Shown: positions 1 to 64,000 of the stretch, one piece after another
Layout: the number at the start of each line of letters is the position of its first letter
Numbering within the stretch: the stretch's first letter is position 1
Origin: Azolla caroliniana
Taxonomy: Eukaryota; Plantae; Polypodiophyta
DNA length: 64,000 bases
Reading direction: 5' to 3'
Assembly: GCA_043228905.1 (NCBI GenBank)
Contig: JBHGNT010000002.1
Coordinates: forward strand, 20,026,001 to 20,090,000
Notes under the pieces: model-generated
What the model was told of the DNA's origin: nothing
Databases searched by the model: none
Seen by the model: the letters and a program-made list of their open reading frames with translations, nothing else
Translations under genes and position numbers: made by a program

Positions 1-609
1 CCTTTCATCATGTCTTCGGCATACCCTTTCGACTTTAGCCCAATCCTCGGTAAGGCCGTTCGCACCGTCATCATCTTCGAGTTCGATCCCAATGTCCATC
101 CTTTCTTTTCGATCGATCGATTTTACGAACATTAGGACTTTATCTTCTCCCACCAATCGTTGTTCCCGCTCCGAGAGTCGAGCAAAACGATGCTCGAACT
201 CTAGGAATGCTTGTGTTGCACTTCGGTGGGTCTTCTCCGATGCCACCCATTCGTCAAACTCGCGTCGATCTCGTCCCTTCGATCTCTCGTAGTCATATGC
301 CTCTCGTAAAGCTTCTTCAAATGATCCCCATGTCGAGTTTTGTTGCCGTATCTTGTAGATTCTTTCTTGTAACTCATCCGTGGCTACCCGACTGAAGGAT
401 ATCACTTGCAATTCTTCTGGTATCCCACATCGCATCATCTCCCCTTTGTAGTCACGTAGATAGCGTGACACATCATTTCCGTTGAATTCCCCATTTCGTC
501 GCACAAGCCGCTCTACTGCCGCCTTCATCTCCGTCATCGCGCGTTGTTCTTGTTGCATCCGCTCAACCATCATCATCATCATGTTCATCACCTCTTGTTG
601 ATTCTCCAT
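1..609 (-). CDS. Ty3/Gypsy Gag N-terminal region of element G1 (ORF runs off the left edge of the window)
   Basis: Manual translation from ATG 609 gives MENQQEVM...LVRRNGEFNGNDVSRYLRDYKGEMMRCGIPEELQVISFSRVA...WGSFEEAL..., with no stop before the edge. It follows an LTR and PBS directly, and is homologous to the fragment at 12130-12770. Confidence 0.75.
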   Translation of the reverse strand, partial: MENQQEVMNMMMMMVERMQQEQRAMTEMKAAVERLVRRNGEFNGNDVSRYLRDYKGEMMRCGIPEELQVISFSRVATDELQERIYKIRQQNSTWGSFEEALREAYDYERSKGRDRREFDEWVASEKTHRSATQAFLEFEHRFARLSEREQRLVGEDKVLMFVKSIDRKERMDIGIELEDDDGANGLTEDWAKVERVCRRHDER

Positions 610-625
610 CCCCTTGCCACCCGTC

Positions 626-643
626 TTCACGTCGGGTTCACCA
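626..643 (-). promoter_or_regulatory. Primer-binding site complementary to the tRNA-Trp 3' end
   Basis: The minus strand reads TGGTGAACCCGACGTGAA, 4 nt after the LTR end. This complements the plant tRNA-Trp 3' end (...TTCACGTCGGGTTCACCA, recalled). Confidence 0.8.
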
Positions 644-647
644 ACTG

Positions 648-1379
648 TGTCGTGCCTTTCGGCGTCAGATCGTTTGCGTGAGTCGGGTGGGAACCGCTGG
701 GGTTTTGGACTAGGAAGAGGAGAGTTTTAAGGCTAATAAGAATATAAATATGTTGTAAGAAAGAGTTATAGCAAACTCGTGAATCCCACGAGTGTATTGT
801 ATTAGATTAATCAATATGAATATAAGAATATAAACTTCGGTTGAAAGAGAATGATATAGAATTCTCGTGAATCCCACGAGTATAGTTTATTAATTGGTGT
901 TTTTTAGAAACATATCCAGTTTCCAAATATTTTTCACACCCAATTACATTGTGCTTCCCCATCCTTATGTAGTGATGAGGAAGTCTTAGTAATCCATGCT
1001 TTTTCTCTAACTATAGACCCCATGCTTTTCCTATAGATAGACTATATGCTTTATCTAAAGTGATCATGCTTTTTTTTCTAACTTGTGCGTTTTTTATCAT
1101 GCACGTTAGATGTGTATGTGTAGCTTTTTCTTTTGTTATGCGTTTTTCTAATGTTTATCCTAGCGTGAATTTACCTTTCTATGTGGGACATCTATGCTTT
1201 AACACTAATGAAATGCTAGTGTAATGGTAAGACATTACATTATTAACATGGAGGTGCAAGGTTCGAATCTTGCCCTATGCATGTTTCATTTATTTTGCTA
1301 TTTTCTTCTATTTCTTCATTTTTTATTGAATCTAATACTATATACGTTTTTCACGTAGTGTACAAAATACACTACGACA
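648..1379 (-). mobile_element. 5' LTR of Gypsy G1 (LTR family T, carrying the tRNA-like module)
   Basis: Minus-strand termini are TGTCGTAG...GGCACGACA. It is nearly identical to the reverse complement of 34975-35700, has a PBS and gag downstream, and is flanked by ACGT at 1380-1383. Confidence 0.9.
1210..1282 (+). ncRNA. tRNA-like (Pol III A/B box) module inside the LTR, antisense to the element; not a functional tRNA gene
   Basis: A-box-like TAGTGTAATGG starts at 1217 and B-box-like GGTTCGAATC at 1260, which is tRNA-like spacing. GCAAG/CTTGC forms a hairpin around the B box, TTAACAT sits at the anticodon-loop position, and T-runs follow. The acceptor stem does not pair. Confidence 0.6.
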
Positions 1380-1982
1380 ACGTGCATAGGGCAAGATTCA
1401 AACCTTGCACCTCCATGTAGATAAACTTCAACTTTACCATTAAAATAACTTATCTTTAGTGTTATACATATAGATTTAATACGTATAAGACCTTTATTTA
1501 CACATACCTTTATAAAAAGGTAAAAATCATGCACATCTAGCGTGAATATTTTATTTACACGTGACATTGAAAGTGACTCATGCACATCTAGCGTGCATGA
1601 GCCCTATATTTAGGAAATGACAAAGCATCACATGCACATTTAGTGTGCATGGACACTTTTGGTGAAAAAGCATGAAGCCATGCTTAGCCTCTTCCATCTT
1701 TATATAAGGAGGAGAGAAATATGTATAAGGTTGTTGATTAATATACAAGGATTGATCAATCTAATATATTCGTGGGATTCACGAATTTTGCCACCTAAAT
1801 TACTCTTATAATCTAAATATTGTTTTAAATACACAAAACTCGTGGGATTCACGAGATTGCTATCTTACTTCTATTTCTACTATTCCTAACTAGCCTTAAG
1901 TTGTATTCCTCTTCCTCCTAGTCCAAAACCTCGGCGGTTCCCACCCGACTCACGCAATGATCCGGAGCCGAAAGGCACGACA
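1380..1982 (+). mobile_element. 3' part of an older family-T LTR, interrupted by G1
   Basis: It ends in GAAAGGCACGACA and contains the same tRNA-like segment and TCGTGGGATTCACGA dyads. G1 is inserted at ACGT within it. Confidence 0.8.
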
Positions 1983-12815: not shown

Positions 12816-13107
12816 ATTTATGCCACGATGTTTCGCACGTGTGTGTTACTTGGGCGGGACCACGGGGGTCTTGGACTAGGGAGTACTAAAGGGATAGAGA
12901 AGACCCGAGGTTTGCTTTACGACAATACTACTTCCAGACCCCTTCTCGAGCAAGGGCTCATTGCCCCTTTTGTGAGTCCGATGGCTTTCGTTGATCACGA
13001 CTAGTCGAGGTTTCGAGATCACCGCACGAGCCAAGTGATCAAACGGGTACAAGCAAAGATGAGCATGCAAGATGAACACACAAGGGGATGATAACATAAG
13101 CATGAAT

Positions 13108-15605
13108 GACCGTACGTCTTTATGAGGAGGAGAGGTGCATGGGCACGCCCGAACGCTCCCTTGTCACAAGACGTCGAACGTACAAGGAAGGCACAAAACA
13201 CACACACAAATACTCGTACGCCTTTATGAGGAGGAGAGGTGCATGGGCAACCCCGAACACTCCCTCATCACAAGACGACCGAGTACAAGGAATACACAAA
13301 CACGCGCACAAATGCTTGTACGTCTTTATGAGGAGGAGAGGTGCATGGGCACGCCCGAAACGCTCCCTCGTCACAAGATGGTCGAACATACAAGGAAGAC
13401 ACAAACACACACACAAAATGCTCGTATGCCTTTATGAGGAGGAGAGGTGCATGGGCATGCCCGAAACACTCCCTCGTCACAAGACGGTTGAACGTACAAG
13501 GAAGACACAAACACACGCACAAATGCTCGTAGATCTTTATGAGGAGGAGAGGTTTATGGGCATGCTCGAAACGCTCCCTCGTCACAAGACGGCCGAACGT
13601 TGTCGCAGTGTAATTCACACACTACATGAAAATTGCATTTTGGTCCTTCCGGATGGGACGAGGAATCAGAAAGAAAGACCCAGTGCGTACCGGATGAAGG
13701 ATGGAATCGGCAAGAAAGACCCGGTGAGAACCGGATGGAATCGGTAAGGAGGAACCGGATGAAGGATGGAATCGGCAAGGAGGAACTGATAAGGAGACCG
13801 GGTAAGAACCGGATCAAGCAGAACCGGCAAGAGTCGGATAAAGAAGGCCGATGAGAGTCTCTCACCGGATGAAGAGACAAATTTGTAAATAGAAGAAAAG
13901 ATTGTTACATGCATAGGGCAAGATTCGAACCCTGTACCTCCATGTTAACGAATTTTAAGCCTTACCACTATACTAGTATATTATGAATTGTAAAGTTATA
14001 CTAAATTTTATCCCATGCAAATATTCTAGATATGCATGGTACAAAAAGTTATTCATGCATTATAAACTCGAGTTAAAAGAAAAGATGGGATAGAAAGCTA
14101 ATCATGCACATGCAGTGTGCATGAAAACTAAAGTTAGAAAAAGCATGATGCTTGCATGTGATAAATTAAGACTCTCTCATCACTGTATAAGGATGGGGAG
14201 CTCAATGTAATGGGGTGTGAAATACTTGGAAATTGGATATATTTCCGAAAACACCAACCAATTAATATATTCGTGGGATTCACAAAATAATATAATACTT
14301 GTGGGATTCACAAGGTTTGATCTCTTTTCTATTTCTACTCTAAACTATTCTAAACTATTTCAATTTATTACTATGATTAAGATAAACTAAAACAACTCTA
14401 CCTAGTCCATAACCCCAGCGGTTCCCACCCGACTCACGCAAACGATTTGGCGCCGAAAGACACGACAACGTACAAGGAAGACACAAACACACGCACAAAA
14501 TGCTCGTACGCCTTTATGAGGAGGAGAGGGGCATGGGCACGCCCGAAACGCTCCCTCATCACAAGATGACCGAACGTACAAGGAAGACACAAACACACGC
14601 ACAAATGCTCGTACGCCTTTATGAGGAATGAGAGGTGCATGGGCACGCCCAAACGCTCCCTTGTCACAAGACGTCGAACGTACAAGGAAGACACAAAACA
14701 CACACACAAATACTCGTACGTCTTTATGAGGAGGAGAGGTGCATGGGCAACCCCAGACGCTCCCTCATCACATGACGACTGAGTACAAGGAATACACAAA
14801 CACACGTACAAATGCTTGTACATCTTTATGAGGAGGAGAGGTGCATGGGCACGCTCGAAACGCTCCCTTGTCACAAGACGGCCGAACGTACAAGGAAGAC
14901 ACAAACACATGCACAAAATGCTTGTACGACTTTATGAGGAGGAGAGGTGCATGGGCATGCCCGAAACGCTCCCTCATCACAAGACGGTTGAACGTACAAG
15001 GAAGACACAAACACACGCACAAATGCTCGTATATCTTTATGAGGAGGAGAGGTGCATGGGCATGCCCGAAACGCTCCCTCGTCACAAGACAGTCGAACGT
15101 ACAAGGAAGACACAAACACATGCACAAAATGCTCGTACGCCTTTATGAGGAGGAGAGGTGCATGGGCACGCCCAAAACGCTCTCTCGTCACAAGACACAC
15201 GCACAAATGCTCGTACGTCTTTATGAGGAGGAGAGGTGCATGGGCACGCCTGAAACGCTCCCTCGTCACAAGACGGTTAAACGTACAAGGAAGACACAAA
15301 CACACACAAGAATGCTCGTATGTCTTTATGAGGAGGAGAGGTGCATGGGCACACCCGAAACGATCCCTCATCACAAGACGACCCAACATACAAGGAAGAC
15401 ACAAGCACACACACAAATGCTCGTACGCCTTTATGAGGAGGAGAGGTGCATAGGCATGCCCAAAACGCTCCCTCGTCACAAGACGACCGAACGTACAAGG
15501 AAGACACAAACACACGCACAAATGCTCGTATGCCTTTATGAAGAGAAGAGGTGCATGGGCACGCCCGAAACGCTCCCTCGTCATAAGACGGCCGAACGTA
15601 CAAGT
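13108..15605. repeat. Tandem array of about 16 monomers of about 105 bp, interrupted by solo LTR 13601-14467
   Basis: The unit TTTATGAGGAGGAGAGGTGCATGGGCACGCCCGAAACGCTCCCTCGTCACAAGACG...CGTACAAGGAAGACACAAACACAC recurs about every 102-106 bp, with one unit of about 79 bp. Confidence 0.95.
13601..14467 (+). mobile_element. Solo LTR, diverged family-T variant
   Basis: Termini are TGTCGCAG...GACACGACA and the TSD is ACGT (13597-13600, 14468-14471). The tRNA-like module is at about 13910-13980, and there are extra CCGGAT-rich short repeats in the 5' part. Confidence 0.9.
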
Positions 15606-27900: not shown

Positions 27901-29414
27901 AGATGGTCCACTTGGATTCACTTGTTGGAGGCATTGAAGATGTATACTTCAAGATGCAAAGATTCAAAGCAGGGCTAGATCCATATTTTCAATATGAAGT
28001 GCATATGAAGTACCCAAGGTCTTTCCATGATTTGCTTCGAGTATGTCAAAGTTATGATCAAGAATTGAAGAAGTTGTTATTTGGTGAAGCATATGGAGTA
28101 TTGACGTCATATACCATAAATCCAAGCTATAATAATTGTGGATCAGTCATGAGCCAACAACCAACATACTTGCAATGTCTGATTCAACAGGTTCCCTCAT
28201 ATCATTATTCTAATTTTTGGAGTTATAATGATGTCTATGAAGGTGATTCCAGAGACAAAGAAGAAGAGGTGATGAATGTTGAGTTCCCCCATATAGTTCA
28301 TGAAGATAACCATGATATAAAGAATGATGATGTGAAAGATGAATCCAAGGAGATTGTTATGAGAAGCGATGCTATGGATGGTGATGCCAATATACATCAT
28401 GTTGAGGACATTATTGATACAACAAGCGATATGGTGGTTGATGACGAATATGTGCAAGATGAAATGGAAGATATGACAGAAAAAGTTGTTGATGGTGAAG
28501 TACCCACAAGGGAGTTGCAAGATGAAGAAGGTAACCTGGAAGTGATAGATGAAGATTGGCTTTTGGAGATCAATGCGTGTAAGGAAGCATTGGTAAGTTC
28601 CAAGTTGTAGTGTATGAAGGTGTTCATGCAAGATTTGTCTTTTGGATTTGCATTGAGTAGCAACAAAGTTATGTAGGCATCAACTCTTCAACAACAATTT
28701 GAGAAAGAGCCAAGAGTGTTATGGGCATGACCATATAATATCTCGTAGTGAGAATTTACCGTAGTATTCTATACACGTGGATAAGTGTGAGGGTTAAACA
28801 AGAGTGTAAAGAAGGGGAGGATTACTTTTAATCCTCGGGATTGAGGCAACCCATTAGGCCAAGTGTGAACTTGCATGGGGGCCTTGGGTATCGTTATAAA
28901 TAAGAGGCCTCGCTACCCTCATTTCATCATCTGGTTGACTACGTCGAGACTCTGTCTTGTGGTGGGTCAACTCTTGTAGCGAGCGCGCCAGCACCAGGTA
29001 CGACTCGACGCCACGGCGGTGGTATGGGACGCCGATCGAGGTTCGAGTCCGTCTCGATCCCTTCGCTCGGGGGTGGTCGGGTGGATCAACACCCTTCTTT
29101 CTCTCTCTCCTTTCTATCTATGTATATTCTATCCTTATCTAATGCTTACATTAGTTCATGTTTCTAACCGTTGGTATCAGAGCCTATGTTGTAATGTTTC
29201 TTTTGTTGGTTTTGTCTTCTTGATGGATGGCGATTGATCAACGTGCGGTCGACCTTGTTCCAAACAGCAATCAACAAAGGAACTTCGGTAATATTTCTTG
29301 TTTTTTTTCTATTCTTTTGTCTCCCAATTTAATCATGTGTATGGTTAATATGTAATTTATTTTTTATATATATTCAATGATGTGGAAGTGGTAATTAATT
29401 GGTTGTATAAAACG

Positions 29415-34000: not shown

Positions 34001-36128
34001 GAATAGACACCACCACATCCTCGAAGGAATACTTCCACATTGTTAACAATCTACTCTATCGTAATGGGAAGGTTTGTGTTCCAGATTTGCTTGAGGTCAA
34101 AAAGAGAATTCTTTTTGAATGCCATGATGCACCTTCACCAGGGCACCCTGGAATACATTGCACACTCGTTCTCATCTCCACTCAATTCTGTTGGTCTAAG
34201 ATGCGCCTTGACATACATAGTTATGTGACTAAATGTCACCAATGTCAGGTTAACAAAGCCGAGCGACTTAAAGCCGCGAGACTTTTACATCCCTTGGACA
34301 TTCCCAATAATAAGTGGGAAAGTATATCCATGGATTTTATTGTTAGCCTTCCTCGCACCCAAAAAGGTCATGATGTCATCTGGGTTGTGGTTGATAGACT
34401 AACTAAAATGGCCAGATTTATTGCTACTAAAACCACGGCAACAACTCCTGAATTGGCTTACCAATTCATTGACGAGTTATTTCGTTTTTATGGGTTACCG
34501 ATATATATTGTGAGTGATCGAGATCCAAAGTTTACTAGTGACTTCTGGACGCAAGTCTTTAAGAAATTAGAAACTACATTGAGCATGAGCTCCACGGATC
34601 ATCCTCAATCCGATGGAAAGACAGAACGAGTAAATCAAATTATTGAGGACATGCTTCGAGCATACGTTGGTGCAAAACCAACAAAATGGGAACGTTATCT
34701 CCCAATTTTGGAGTTTGCTTATAACAGCTCCAAGCATACGTCGACGGGATATAGTCCTTTTATGTTGATGTATGGTTTTCAGCCACGAGCCCCGATTGAT
34801 GTTAATATACATCATGATGAGTTGCGAAGTACGCAAAACTTTCTTCGGGATATGCAAGATATGTTGCATATTGCACGAGATAATATAAAAACAGCTCAAG
34901 ATAGAGCGCATTTTTATGCAGATCATCATAGGCAACCTCGTGTATTCAAACCTGGACAGAAGGTATTTTTACGTTGTCGTAGTGTATTTTGTACACTACG
35001 TGAAAAACGTATATAGTATTAGATTCAATAAAAAATGAAGAAATAGAAGAAAATAGCAAAATAAATGGAACATGCATAGGGCAAGATTCGAACCTTGCAC
35101 CTCCATGTTAATAATGTAATGTCTTACCATTACACTAGCATTTCATTAGTGTTAAAGCATAGATGTCCCACATAGAAAGGTAAATTCACGCTAGGATAAA
35201 CATTAGAAAAACGCATAACAAAAGAAAAAGCTACACATACACATCTAGCGTGCATGATAAAAAACGCACAAGTTAGAAAAAGCATGATCACTTTAGATAA
35301 AGCATATAGTCTATCTATAGGAAAAGCATGGGGTCTATAGTTAGAGAAAAAGCATGGATTACTAAGACTTCCTCATCACTACATAAGGATGGGAAGCACA
35401 ATGTAATTGTGTGTGTGAAATACTTGGAAACTGGATATGTTTCTAAAAAACACCAATTAATAAACTATACTCGTGGGATTCACGAGGATTCTATATCATT
35501 CTCTTTCAACCCAAATTTATATTCTTATATTCATATTGATTAATCAAATACAATACACTCGTGGGATTCACGAGTTTGCTATAACTCTTTCTTACAACAT
35601 ATTTATATTCTTATTAGCCTTAAACTCTCCTCTTCCTAGTCCAAAACCCCAGCGGTTCCCACCCGACTCACGCAACGATCTGGCGCCGAAAGGCACGACA
35701 ACGTGTACCTCACAATTCTACGACATTGTCTAAGGGTAAGTGCGCTAAGTTAGCCCCATGGTTTTGTGGACTTTTTATAGTCCTCAAACGCATTGGGTCA
35801 TCAACCTATCGTCTCGCTCTTCTCGAAGGTGTTGAAATTCATCTAGTTTTTCATGTGAGTCGTCTAAAAGAACTTCTAGGTTCTGGAGACAATATAGTTA
35901 CAACTGAAACTCTGGTTACTTCTGAAGAATTATCTTCTAAACTACATGTACCAGAAAGAATTCTCGATGTTAAAACAAAAAAATTACGTACTAAAGAAAT
36001 CCGAGAATTTAAAATAAAATGGAGGGATAAATTAATAAAAGATGCCACATGTGAACGCGAAAATACTCTCAGAACTAACTTCCCTAATTTTCCATTACAA
36101 GAGTGCAATGTTTTAAAGAGGGGGAGTA
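31026..36128 (+). pseudogene. G4 gag-pol: Gag, protease, RT, RNase H, integrase, chromodomain
   Basis: Protease is LFDSGSSYNFV. ORF 32713-34974 contains [29 protein letters not shown] and HHCC/DDE integrase motifs. After the solo LTR come a GPY/F-like segment and the chromodomain PERILDVKTKKLRTKEIREFKIKW...DATCE. Gag contains stops. Confidence 0.92.
34975..35700 (+). mobile_element. Family-T solo LTR inserted into the G4 integrase
   Basis: Termini are TGTCGTAG...GGCACGACA and the TSD is ACGT (34971-34974, 35701-35704). It is nearly identical to 648-1379. The tRNA-like module is on the minus strand at about 35074-35145. Confidence 0.95.
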
Positions 36129-36356: not shown

Positions 36357-37102
36357 TGTTGTAGTGTAATTTGCACACTACATGAAAAACTTATAAAGTA
36401 GCGTTTTAGTAAATATGAAGAAATAGAAGAAAATGTCAAAATAAATAATACATGCATAGGGCAAGATTCAAACCTTGCACCTCCATGTTAATAATGTGAA
36501 ACCTTACCATTACACTAGCATTTCATTAGTGTTTAAAAAGTAGATGTCCCACATAAAAAGGTAAGTTCACGTAGGATAAACTTTAGTTAAAAGAAAAACG
36601 CATGCTAAAAGAAAAAGCTACACATGCACATCTAGCGTGCATGAACACTATAGTCGATAAAAACGCACAAGTTAGAAAAAGCATGATCACTTTAGATAAA
36701 ACATATAGTCTATCTATAGGAAAAGCATGGAGTCTATACTTAGAAAAAGAAAAGGCATGGATTGCTAAGACTCCCTCATCACTACATAAGGATAAGGAGC
36801 ACAATGTAAGATGTGTGTGGATTATTTGGAAATTGGATATATTTCCTAAAACACCAATTAATAAACTATACTCGTGGGATTCACGAGGATTCTATATCAT
36901 TCTCTTTCAACCCAAATTTATATTCTTATATTTATATTGATTAATCTAATATAATACACTCATGGGATTCACGAGTTTGCTATAACTCTTTCTTACAACA
37001 TATTTATATTCTTATTAGCCTTAAAACTCTCCTCTTCCTAGTCCAAAACCTCAGTGGTTCCCACCCGACTCATGCAACGATCCGGCGTCGAAAGGCACGA
37101 CA
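36357..37102 (+). mobile_element. Family-T solo LTR inserted into the G4 3' LTR
   Basis: TSD is ACGT (36353-36356, 37103-37106). The empty site, with a single ACGT, is visible in the G4 5' LTR at about 28941. Confidence 0.95.
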
Positions 37103-37874: not shown

Positions 37875-38408
37875 CATGTGCCAAGAAGGAATTCACGTGG
37901 AATCAAAGATCAAAGTAATTCAAAAGGTGACAACTCCGACAAGTCTCAAAGCTTTGAAGGTGTTTGTGCAAAAGGTTCGCTCGCTCAAAAGGTTTATTCA
38001 TATGTTAACATGCTTACTTCTATCCAAAGTTATGTATCTCATGGACCTACTTGTGTTTGGAAAGTTGATGAAGACATACTAATTGTTGTAACCTCTTTCT
38101 TTGTGTTGACAAGGAGAAAGATGGTGATGGCAATTGTCAATGTGTGTGGTTGCCATCACCATCTTTCTCCTTGTCAACACAAAGAAAGAGGTTACAACAA
38201 TTAGTATGTCTTCATCAACTTTCCAAACACAAGTAGGTCCATGAGATACATAACTTTGGATAGAAGTAAGCATGTTAACATATGAATAAACCTTTTGAGT
38301 GAGCGAACCTTTTGCACAAACACCTTCAAAGCTTTGAGACTTGTCGGAGTTGTCACCTTTTGAATTACTTCGATCTTTGATTCCACGTGAATTCCTTCTT
38401 GGCACATG
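37875..38408. repeat. Near-perfect long inverted repeat (259-bp arms, 16-nt loop)
   Basis: Arms are 37875-38133 and 38150-38408, with two mismatches seen. Mirror ORFs appear in the ORF track (37878..38204 + and 38079..38405 -). Confidence 0.95.
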
Positions 38409-62136: not shown

Positions 62137-64000
62137 TGACGCGAAATATTACTCGGCCACAACCGAGTCTCAGATCGTGTCGTTTAGAATTGAACACCGA
62201 GAATGGGAATGGAGGTGTACACACAGACAATATGAGAGAGGGTACACAGTATGTTAACATGGAAAACCCTAAATGGGAAAAACCACGTGAGTCCACAAAC
62301 TCCAACTATCACTATGTCGAGAGGAACACAACAAGTGAACACAGAGGCAACAACCTCTTGCTCACAATCTTTGCCTGGCGGCGGTTACAACAAAGAATCA
62401 CTCTGTATCTCTCTCTCTCTCTGCTATGCTCTGTACAACAGTTACAATCAATAACTCTATACAACAAATAATAACAACAACAACGAATAATAAACAAGTG
62501 TTTGCCCTAGGTCATATTTATACTAATATGACATTAGGACTATTTACAGGTATAGCCCTAATGGGCTCTCAGAAACATATTTACCTATATGTCCCTTTAT
62601 CCGGTGAGAGGTTCTCACCGAGCCTGCGTCATCCAGTTCTCACCGGGTCTTCCTTGCCGGGTACTCATCATCTGGTTCTCACCGGGCCTTCGTCATCCCA
62701 TCCGGAGGGACTGAGATCCTAACAAACTCCCCCTTCACTCCGGCATGGGATGCCTGGTTAGTCCTATTCGCTTCCGACATGCGTCCAACTTGTCGGGCGT
62801 CAGCACCTTGGTCAACATATCTGACCCATTGTCCTCTGTGTGGATCTTCGTCAGCACGAACTTTCGATCTTCCACTCGCTCCCGGATCCAGTGGTACCTC
62901 CGATGGATGTGCTTCGTCCTGGAATGATATGCCATGTTCTTTGCAAGGTGGATGGCACTTTGACTGTCGCAGTAGAGCCGATATTCCTCTTGCCGGATCC
63001 CTAGCTCTCCAATGAAGTCCTTCGTCCATAATATTTCCTTGTCGGCTTCCACGGCTGCCATGTACTCCGCCTCCGTGGTTGACAATGCAACCGTCTTTTG
63101 TAGCCTCGACTGCCACAAAACAGCTCCCCCTGCATATGTCATTACATATCCCGATGTTGACCGGCTGGTATCCGCATCAGCCAACATATCCGAATCGGTG
63201 AAACCGTCAAGTTGGGGTTTACTGGAGCTGAATCGAAGGCACATAGTTGAGGTGCCTTTCAAGTATCAGAGTATCCATTTTACTACATTCCAGTGCTCCT
63301 TACTGGGATTGCTCATAAACTGGCTCACCACTTTGACTGCGTATCTGATATCCGGTTGGGTCCACACCATTGCGTACATTAAACTCCCAACCGTAGAGGC
63401 ATATGGTATCTTCATCATATCCGCCTTCTCTTCTTTCGTCTTCGGGCTTTGCTTACCGGATAACTTGCGGTTTGCCGGGAATGTCGATCCGACCAATTTC
63501 GCATCTGACAAGTTGAACTGCTGAAGCACCTTTGTCACGTACTTCTCTTGTGACAACCACAATTGCTTCGTTGACCGGTTCCGGATGATATGCATCCCCA
63601 ATATCTGTCTTGCCAAACCCAAGTCTTTCATTGAGAAGGTCCGGTTCAGGGCCTTCTTCAGCATCCGTATCTTGACTCGGTCTTGTTCGACGATCAACAT
63701 ATCATCCACGTATAGGAGGAGTATCAGGAAGTCTCCTCCGTCAAATTTCTTCACAAACACGCAGTGATCGGCTTGCGTCTTGTGGTACCCTTGATCGGTC
63801 ATGAAGGAGTCGAACTTCCGGTACCATTGCTAGGGAGCATGCTTCAAACCGTATAGGTTCTTCTTCAACTAGAAAACCAAGTGCTCTTTCCCTTTCTTCA
63901 CAAATTCCTCCGGTTGCTACATGTAGATCTCCTTTTCGAGGTCGCCGTGGAGGAACGTCGTCTTCACGTCTAATTGCTCTACCTCGAGGTCCATGCTTGC
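62137..64000 (-). mobile_element. 3' part of Tnt1/Tork-like Copia C6 (RT, RNase H, PPT, 3' LTR); continues beyond the window
   Basis: The LTR at 62137-62724 is similar to 25358-25883. PPT GAAGGGGGAG is at about 62727-62736. Motifs include LLYVDDML, FTDSDM, ALSTTEAEY and RTKHIHRRYHWIRE, with an in-frame stop at about 63266. Confidence 0.9.

What the first reader, a model, noticed from the sequence alone, without database searches (positions are those of the whole stretch)
1210..1330. Gypsy LTR family carrying a conserved antisense tRNA-like Pol III cassette
Seen: all five family-T LTRs (648-1379, 1380-1982, 13601-14467, 34975-35700, 36357-37102) contain a roughly 70-bp tRNA-like segment, antisense to the element. 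In the best copies it has an A box (TAGTGTAATGG, or TAGTATAGTGG in the 13601 copy), a B box (GGTTCGAATC) at tRNA spacing inside a GCAAG/CTTGC hairpin, a TTAAC loop at the anticodon position (Val-AAC-like) and downstream T-runs. Both boxes persist in the diverged 13601 copy, whose 5' part has been replaced. Two copies have GGTTTGAATC, and the 1380 copy has a decayed A box. Established: Cassandra TRIMs carry 5S-derived Pol III promoters in their LTRs. Inference: this may be a tRNA-type analogue, with each LTR or solo LTR spreading a Pol III unit that could make a short antisense RNA or act as a TFIIIC-bound insulator against silencing. I do not know whether this has been described.
Basis: partly seen in the sequence, partly recalled or inferred. 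Interest (0 to 1): 0.8.

Follow-up and report, generated by a model that had tools for sequence, protein, structure and literature searches.

The report
Backward tRNA-like unit in Gypsy LTRs
A family of protein-coding plant jumping genes carries, inside its end-repeats, a backward-facing 90-base stretch laid out like a tRNA gene's promoter and stop signal; it likely came from a captured tRNA-type element and may act as an optional RNA polymerase III switch in young copies, but one key promoter base is lost in half of the copies and no RNA from it has been seen.

Summary
All five window copies are LTRs of one gag-pol-encoding Gypsy family whose insertion-site preference matches the Phygy clade. 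Each carries an antisense A box and B box at tRNA spacing in U3.

The cassette was found 33 times in 83 sources, always inside an LTR. Across 27 full copies, most tRNA-invariant bases, the 44-nt spacing (24 of 27) and a T4 run 21-24 nt downstream (24 of 26) are kept.

It is not a tRNA. The cloverleaf fails (44% of cells paired) and the Val-AAC reading is out of register. The 3' half folds as a 39-nt hairpin.

Function is unproven. B-box C56 survives in 13 of 27 copies, both boxes in 6 of 27, and no RNA data were available.

tRNA-derived LTR sequence is already described (Helenus/TRIMp3, Kojima 2024), as are Pol III units in foamy-virus LTRs. The difference here is an autonomous element and the antisense orientation. 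The scan held no note on this sequence, but has similar themes in other genomes.

Verdict: new variant of a known kind. About 45% an accessory Pol III/TFIIIC unit, about 40% a partly constrained relic.

The parts
648..1379 (-). 5' LTR (732 bp, TG...CA) of a Phygy-type Gypsy element that runs off the left end of the window
   Evidence: 97.7% identical to 34975-35700
627..643 (-). Primer-binding site, 4 nt after the LTR end. Assignment to tRNA-Trp is recalled and was not tested by a call
   Evidence: the same motif follows the LTR in 13 of 88 LTR ends examined
1..612 (-). gag reading frame, open to the window edge
   Evidence: 52% identical to the gag of L058, which continues into pol
1217..1227 (+). 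A box (tRNA positions 8-19), antisense to the element
   Evidence: T8 27/27, A14 26/27, G18 26/27, G19 27/27, G10 16/27
1260..1270 (+). B box (tRNA positions 52-62), at the apex of the hairpin
   Evidence: G53 27/27, T54 24/27, T55 26/27, C56 13/27, A58 23/27, C61 27/27
1246..1284 (+). 39-nt imperfect hairpin holding the B box; overlaps a CATGCA motif
   Evidence: 88.6% of cells paired, 2 of 15 pairs with changes on both sides
1293..1296 (+). T4 run, candidate Pol III terminator; the predicted unit spans about 1208-1296
   Evidence: at 21-24 nt after C61 in 24 of 26 copies
1380..1982 (+). Older LTR of the same family, split at an ACGT in its own cassette hairpin by insertion of the 648 element; cassette remnant 1380-1461 on the - strand
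13601..14467 (+). Solo LTR, long-U3 subfamily, ACGT duplication, inserted in a 105-bp satellite; cassette 13901-13989 (-), both boxes intact
34975..35700 (+). Solo LTR, ACGT duplication, inserted in the integrase of a chromodomain Gypsy; cassette 35064-35151 (-), both boxes intact
36357..37102 (+). Solo LTR, ACGT duplication shown by the empty paralogous site near 28940; cassette 36444-36531 (-), C56 lost
866..878 (.). Palindrome CGT-N7-ACG (second copy at 778-790); better conserved than the cassette and used as an internal control

Best explanation
The segment is an antisense unit with an A box, a B box and a T4 run in the U3 region of a Phygy-type Gypsy LTR, likely captured once from a tRNA gene or tRNA-derived SINE and likely kept as an optional TFIIIC/Pol III element that would work only in copies with an intact B box. 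Shown: the layout, the orientation, inheritance in every subfamily sampled, loss of the cloverleaf, and a hairpin in the 3' half. Inferred: in young copies TFIIIC would bind the boxes, and Pol III would make an RNA of about 85-90 nt pointing outward toward the LTR's 5' end. It cannot make the genomic RNA, so any benefit would be indirect, most plausibly keeping the adjacent Pol II promoter region open. CpG decay at C56 would switch it off in many copies, and the element appears to tolerate that.
For: T8-G53 spacing is 44 nt in 24 of 27 copies. T4 lies 21-24 nt after C61 in 24 of 26, and its columns are more conserved (0.79-1.0) than 1286-1290 (0.36-0.66). On a tree of 25 LTRs the ten tRNA-invariant sites average 1.6 parsimony steps (0.89 without C56), against 3.2 for the anticodon region and 2.1-3.6 for other U3 stretches; random draws reach these values in 2.6% and 0.06% of cases (dropping C56 was post hoc). 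Cassette identity exceeds the rest of the LTR in all 10 window pairs, e.g. 87% against 71% for 648 versus 13601. In run X1 (organism A) summed contig depth peaks over 1249-1280 at about 28,800, with no variant at 8% or more in the B box, and this block is one of the depth peaks along the LTR. The youngest window pair has both boxes intact.
Against: C56 is the most variable cassette site (8 steps) and is kept in 13 of 27 copies; G10 is kept in 16 of 27; both boxes are intact in 6 of 27. The B-box CpG is retained in 9 of 23 LTRs, against 18-22 of 25 at the palindrome CpGs. C56 losses fall on internal branches (2 in 0.83 length) nearly as often as on terminal ones (6 in 1.79), so replicating lineages lost it. 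The block 1246-1284 is only of median conservation for U3 (2.05 steps against a median of 2.2). The 14 nt after the B box are as conserved as the box itself (0.85 against 0.80). Two LTRs with both ends and a PBS lack the cassette through deletions of about 300 nt (L008 and one in L037). The X1 result has no CpG control and may reflect a young family. A T4 occurs within 40 nt of 58% of LTR positions.
Confidence: 0.45

Rival explanations
1. A relic. A tRNA-derived SINE head inserted backward into the ancestral U3 and has been copied passively since. What conservation remains reflects overlapping Pol II motifs on the element's own strand (for example CATGCA) and mutation bias, not Pol III use.
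For: C56 and G10 decay freely and the B-box CpG behaves like weakly constrained CpGs. Overall conservation is median for U3. Conserved bases extend beyond the boxes. Deletion variants exist. Kojima 2024 proposes SINE insertion into an LTR as the origin of such sequences.
Against: The best-kept sites are the tRNA-invariant ones plus spacing and terminator, while the anticodon region drifts. The B box is intact in the dominant sequence of a second organism. No free SINE with this head was found in 258,596 bases, although that is a small sample.
Confidence: 0.4
2. The selected feature is the 39-nt hairpin, acting as an RNA structure in the U3 part of the genomic RNA or as a DNA structure during reverse transcription. 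The boxes ride along inside it.
For: 88.6% of cells are paired, against 28-52% for slid controls; two pairs switch between A-U and G-C. Mean folding z-score is about -2 on both strands. The arms explain the conserved 14 nt after the B box.
Against: Covariation does not exceed the shuffles (60 of 500 reach the score; 460 of 500 reach the pair count). The structure was derived from one member. One compensated pair is a CpG pair that can arise by decay. The A box and T4 lie outside the hairpin yet are conserved.
Confidence: 0.1
3. Chance resemblance: unrelated promoter motifs happen to look like A and B boxes.
For: Rfam tRNA score is below threshold (13.4 against 29 bits); ARAGORN is negative; no cloverleaf.
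Against: 1 of 5000 shuffles gives such a pair; the match covers model positions 8-63 in register; a T4 follows at a fixed distance.
Confidence: 0.05

Closest known systems
Helenus / TRIMp3 (Kojima 2024, PMC10886601; main text parts 1-4 of 6 read, plus one supplement passage)
   Same: tRNA-derived sequence in both LTRs and in solo LTRs, conserved around boxes A and B, no functional tRNA, proposed origin by SINE insertion; one plant family (Selaginella). The paper also notes that 'not a few' Repbase LTRs hold tRNA-like parts, and followed up only TRIMs under 1000 bp.
   Different: Helenus is non-autonomous, 311-1263 bp in total, and the three LTR sequences I saw in the supplement read in the sense direction. 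Here the element encodes gag-pol, the LTR alone is about 660-875 bp, and the unit is antisense, so it cannot be the element's promoter.
Cassandra TRIM (PMC7215508, passages; PMC10886601)
   Same: Small-RNA-gene-derived Pol III promoter and terminator in plant LTRs, including ferns.
   Different: 5S-type (boxes A and C), non-autonomous, and it transcribes the element itself.
Simian foamy virus LTR Pol III miRNA cassettes (PMC3993851, passages)
   Same: An autonomous LTR retroelement whose LTR holds A box, B box and terminator units making short hairpin RNAs.
   Different: Shown by experiment there (alpha-amanitin, box mutations). Here there are no expression data, and the double hairpin is predicted only in one subfamily (4 of 27 rows with z below -4 for the A-box half).
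Phygy clade of non-chromovirus Ty3/gypsy (Neumann et al. 2019, PMC6317226; passages and one supplement row)
   Same: 4-bp NCGN target duplication, short gag-pol element; pol is 57-69% identical to named Riccia and Adiantum proteins.
   Different: Described from Physcomitrella. The passages read mention no tRNA-like LTR segment. Whether moss or liverwort members carry it could not be tested.
Mouse B2 SINE chromatin boundaries (PMC8136502, passages)
   Same: A mobile tRNA-derived unit acting as a boundary, with TFIIIC discussed as one possible route. This is a precedent for the insulator idea.
   Different: Free-standing SINE in a mammal; boundary shown by experiment; TFIIIC dependence not shown there.

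Membership tests
Ty3/Gypsy LTR retrotransposon | TG...CA LTRs, PBS, PPT, gag-pol with RT-RH-INT order | tested here: met
   PBS after the LTR; purine-rich tract before the LTR in L025, L050, L037, L065; RT, RNase H, integrase order in L058; L025 joins pol to a cassette-bearing LTR
Phygy clade | 4-bp TSD with NCGN preference | tested here: met
   ACGT duplicated at 3 of 3 window solo LTRs, with empty sites for two; 56 of 67 non-PBS flanks are NCGN and 9 more are N(TG/CA)N
Phygy clade | PBS mostly for tRNA-Trp (81% in the paper's table) | tested here: inconclusive
   A conserved PBS is present; its match to tRNA-Trp is recalled and no call tested it
Phygy clade | RT/INT phylogeny groups with reference Phygy elements | not testable with these tools
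   No reference Phygy sequences were available; nearest named proteins are from Riccia and Adiantum
Helenus / TRIMp3 | tRNA-derived sequence with boxes A and B in the LTR | tested here: met
Helenus / TRIMp3 | Non-autonomous TRIM, about 1 kb or less, no coding capacity | tested here: not met
   Cassette-bearing LTRs adjoin gag (window, L027, L059, L024) and pol (L025, L050)
Helenus / TRIMp3 | Pol III promoter oriented to transcribe the element | tested here: not met
   Antisense to PBS and gag in all copies where direction is known
tRNA gene | Cloverleaf with acceptor, D, anticodon and T stems | tested here: not met
   44.3% of cells paired, no better than slid controls; ARAGORN 0; Rfam below threshold
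Type 2 Pol III transcription unit | A box, B box and T4+ terminator in order and spacing | tested here: met
   Both boxes intact in 6 of 27 copies, including 3 of 5 window copies; T4 in 24 of 26
Type 2 Pol III transcription unit | TFIIIC/Pol III occupancy and a discrete transcript | not testable with these tools
   No RNA holder listed; only contigs could be laid
tRNA-derived SINE (free-standing) | Dispersed copies outside LTRs with their own tail and TSD | tested here: inconclusive
   0 of 33 significant hits lie outside an LTR in 258,596 bases chosen by an LTR motif; no whole genome held

The most novel reading that the evidence does not exclude
An autonomous plant Gypsy lineage carries its own antisense Pol III gene in U3, a plant counterpart of the foamy-virus LTR cassettes. 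Each new insertion and solo LTR would seed a TFIIIC-bound unit that makes an 85-90-nt hairpin RNA or shields the LTR promoter from silencing, and it would switch off with age through decay of the single CpG in its B box.
Probability: 0.25. Interest if true: 0.75.

Novelty: new variant of a known kind. Interest (0 to 1): 0.42.

Why it matters
Pol III promoters in LTRs are known in gene-less TRIMs, where they transcribe the element. Kojima 2024 argues that autonomous partners must rely on Pol II. An autonomous family that keeps a backward Pol III unit across subfamilies averaging about 27% divergence would need another use for it, such as a small RNA or a chromatin boundary. Because copies with and without C56 coexist in one genome, the question is directly testable by comparing them. 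If it is a relic, it remains a caution for tRNA and SINE annotation in non-seed plant genomes.

Tried and rejected
No whole genome is held for this window, so copy number and free SINEs could not be surveyed. First idea, a non-autonomous DNA transposon such as GingerRoot: rejected, because GingerRoot has 6-bp TSDs and 100-150-bp TIRs and these repeats have a PBS, gag and pol. Cloverleaf and Val-AAC: rejected. RNA evidence: no RNA holder listed; X2 and X4 are only guessed to be RNA and are contigs, so nothing on expression is claimed. Searches for distant relatives with DNA failed: viral contigs by protein, alignment and PBS motif (the 6 motif hits were unrelated), and genome contigs by cassette motif (0 hits). 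The moss supplement sequences were cut at 400 letters and could not be used. The Rfam miRNA hits over 1242-1424 come from the two inverted LTR copies and are all below threshold. The gag search gave no named hosts. Rows dropped before counts: 6 of 33 cassette hits (L061, L063, L015, L003, L067, L037; truncated, interrupted or deleted); the 1380 copy for downstream columns and T4 counts. The tree used 25 LTRs. Literature: 9 searches found no paper describing this cassette in Phygy or an antisense tRNA-type unit in an autonomous plant LTR; the library lacks most subscription papers and Repbase entries.

Full report
Observation. In the copy at 648-1379 the A box is at 1217-1227 and the B box at 1260-1270 on the + strand, with T8 to G53 at 44 nt. 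An A+B pair at such spacing arose in 1 of 5000 dinucleotide shuffles of this LTR (recalled box pattern). Rfam's tRNA model matches 1217-1273 at model positions 8-63 but only at 13.4 bits, below the gathering score of 29. ARAGORN calls no tRNA in the window.

What the repeats are. Three window copies are solo units with a duplicated ACGT, confirmed by empty paralogous sites for 36357 and 13601. The 34975 copy interrupts the integrase of an unrelated chromodomain Gypsy. A scan with a 20-base motif from the LTR's 3' end gave 82 loci. Of 88 LTR ends in these loci and the window, 13 are followed by one conserved PBS, 8 could not be read, and 56 of the other 67 are followed by NCGN. L058 carries gag and a pol with RT, RNase H and integrase. 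The window's minus-strand frame at 1-612 is 52% identical to that gag, and L025 joins the end of pol to an LTR with both boxes intact. Neumann et al. 2019 single out Phygy as the one plant lineage with an NCGN preference (PMC6317226, passage; supplement row: 4-bp TSD, tRNA-Trp PBS in 81%). The named pol relatives are from Riccia and Adiantum. So this is an autonomous Phygy-type Gypsy of a probably non-seed plant. The host was not identified, and clade membership was not tested by phylogeny.

Distribution of the cassette. A profile search found it 33 times, and a covariance model found the same 33 with E below 0.001 in 83 sources and 258,596 bases. All lie antisense in U3, about 450-760 nt from the 3' motif where that can be measured. 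Of 39 LTR ends with at least 600 nt upstream, 29 have it, 8 are cut short before it, and 2 have both LTR ends but a deletion of about 300 nt that removes it. Contigs of three coded organisms (A, B, C) cover at least part of the region. It is therefore older than the subfamily split (mean identity outside the cassette 73%), not a recent insertion. The contigs are assemblies of repeats and some may be chimeric.

Structure. It is not a tRNA. The cloverleaf register pairs 44.3% of cells, no better than slid controls, and the anticodon position reads TTA in the window copy and varies in relatives. The 3' half folds as a hairpin at 1246-1284 with the B box at its apex: 88.6% of cells paired and two pairs switching between A-U and G-C, but covariation is not above the shuffles. 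RNAalifold gives a partly different register for the lower stem. The fold is about equally stable on both strands. A second hairpin over the A box, giving a dumbbell (z -3.7 for the window copy), is confined to one subfamily.

Evidence for selection. Among 27 full copies (6 of 33 dropped as truncated or interrupted), T8, G19, G53 and C61 are invariant, and A14, G18 and T55 are kept in 26. This agrees with the conserved T...GG of plant A boxes and the 5' GG of B boxes, though the 3' CC is CT in 21 of 27 (PMC11700998, passages). Spacing is fixed in 24 of 27 and a T4 follows 21-24 nt after C61 in 24 of 26. On a tree of 25 LTRs the invariant sites average 1.6 steps, or 0.89 without C56, against 3.2 in the anticodon region. 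In run X1 the block 1249-1280 carries a summed depth near 28,800 with no B-box variant at 8% or more, and it is one of the depth peaks along the LTR. That run is probably DNA, contigs drop rare variants, and no CpG control was available.

Evidence against strict selection. C56 is kept in 13 of 27, G10 in 16 of 27, and both boxes in 6 of 27. The B-box CpG survives in 9 of 23 LTRs, against 18-22 of 25 at the palindrome CpGs. Its losses are not confined to terminal branches. The hairpin block is of median conservation for U3 and less conserved than the two CGT-N7-ACG palindromes and the TATA-like region. The 14 nt after the B box are as conserved as the box. That C56 is essential for TFIIIC binding is recalled knowledge; Kojima reports GGTTC as conserved in Helenus.

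Mechanism. Most likely (0.45) this is a captured tRNA-type unit kept as an accessory TFIIIC/Pol III element that works in young copies and decays with its CpG. Close behind (0.40) is a relic whose residual conservation has other causes. Selection on the hairpin (0.10) and chance (0.05) are less likely. Binding, transcription and any boundary effect are inferred; no RNA holder was listed.

Comparison with known systems. This family fails two Helenus criteria: it is autonomous, and its unit is antisense. In design it is closer to the Pol III cassettes in foamy-virus LTRs (PMC3993851, passages), without their experimental support. B2 SINE boundaries (PMC8136502, passages) are a precedent for the insulator idea. 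Nine literature searches found no description of this cassette in Phygy; Repbase and most subscription papers could not be searched. The scan's notes held nothing on this sequence or on this theme in this genome, but list antisense tRNA-like inserts in Gypsy elements and an LTR-borne tRNA-like promoter in other genomes (unchecked).

Verdict. A real, family-wide feature and a new variant of a known kind, with mixed evidence of function. Interest 0.42.

Noticed in passing
window 1380-1383; L061 near 2955: In both places a family member has inserted into an ACGT that forms an arm of the cassette hairpin of an older LTR. This may only reflect the NCGN preference.
   Followed up: partly
window 778-790 and 866-878: Two CGT-N7-ACG palindromes are the best-conserved part of the LTR (0.8-1.2 steps). 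The resemblance to NAC-factor sites is recalled, not tested. CATGCA motifs (RY-like, recalled) occur at 1098 and 1278.
   Followed up: partly
L024, L029, L050, L055 cassettes: Loss of C56 together with a neighbouring C-to-T change produces a plant telomere-type 8-mer (telo-box name recalled) in these four copies.
   Followed up: no
L033 977-905 (-): A separate A-box/B-box head outside any LTR, next to a palindromic repeat; possibly a SINE of that host. It does not match the cassette model.
   Followed up: partly
L028 1460-1530 (+); L037 4795-4878 (+): A decayed tRNA-like sequence in L028 and a tRNA-Leu(CAA) called by ARAGORN in L037.
   Followed up: no
window 37875-38408: Near-perfect inverted repeat with 259-nt arms, 99% complementary, 16-nt loop; only sub-threshold miRNA hits.
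   Followed up: no
window 13093-15604: Tandem satellite of about 105 bp, interrupted by the 13601 solo LTR.
   Followed up: partly
window 13643-13891 and 62578-62711: The extra 5' part of the 13601 LTR is 71-75% similar to a stretch in another repeat near 62.6 kb, suggesting exchange of U3 sequence between families.
   Followed up: no
L001 3018-6128 (-): An open frame of 1036 aa, unrelated to the Gypsy element, not identified.
   Followed up: no
window 1345-1376: A short terminal hairpin 3 nt inside the LTR's 5' end, present in nearly all full copies.
   Followed up: no
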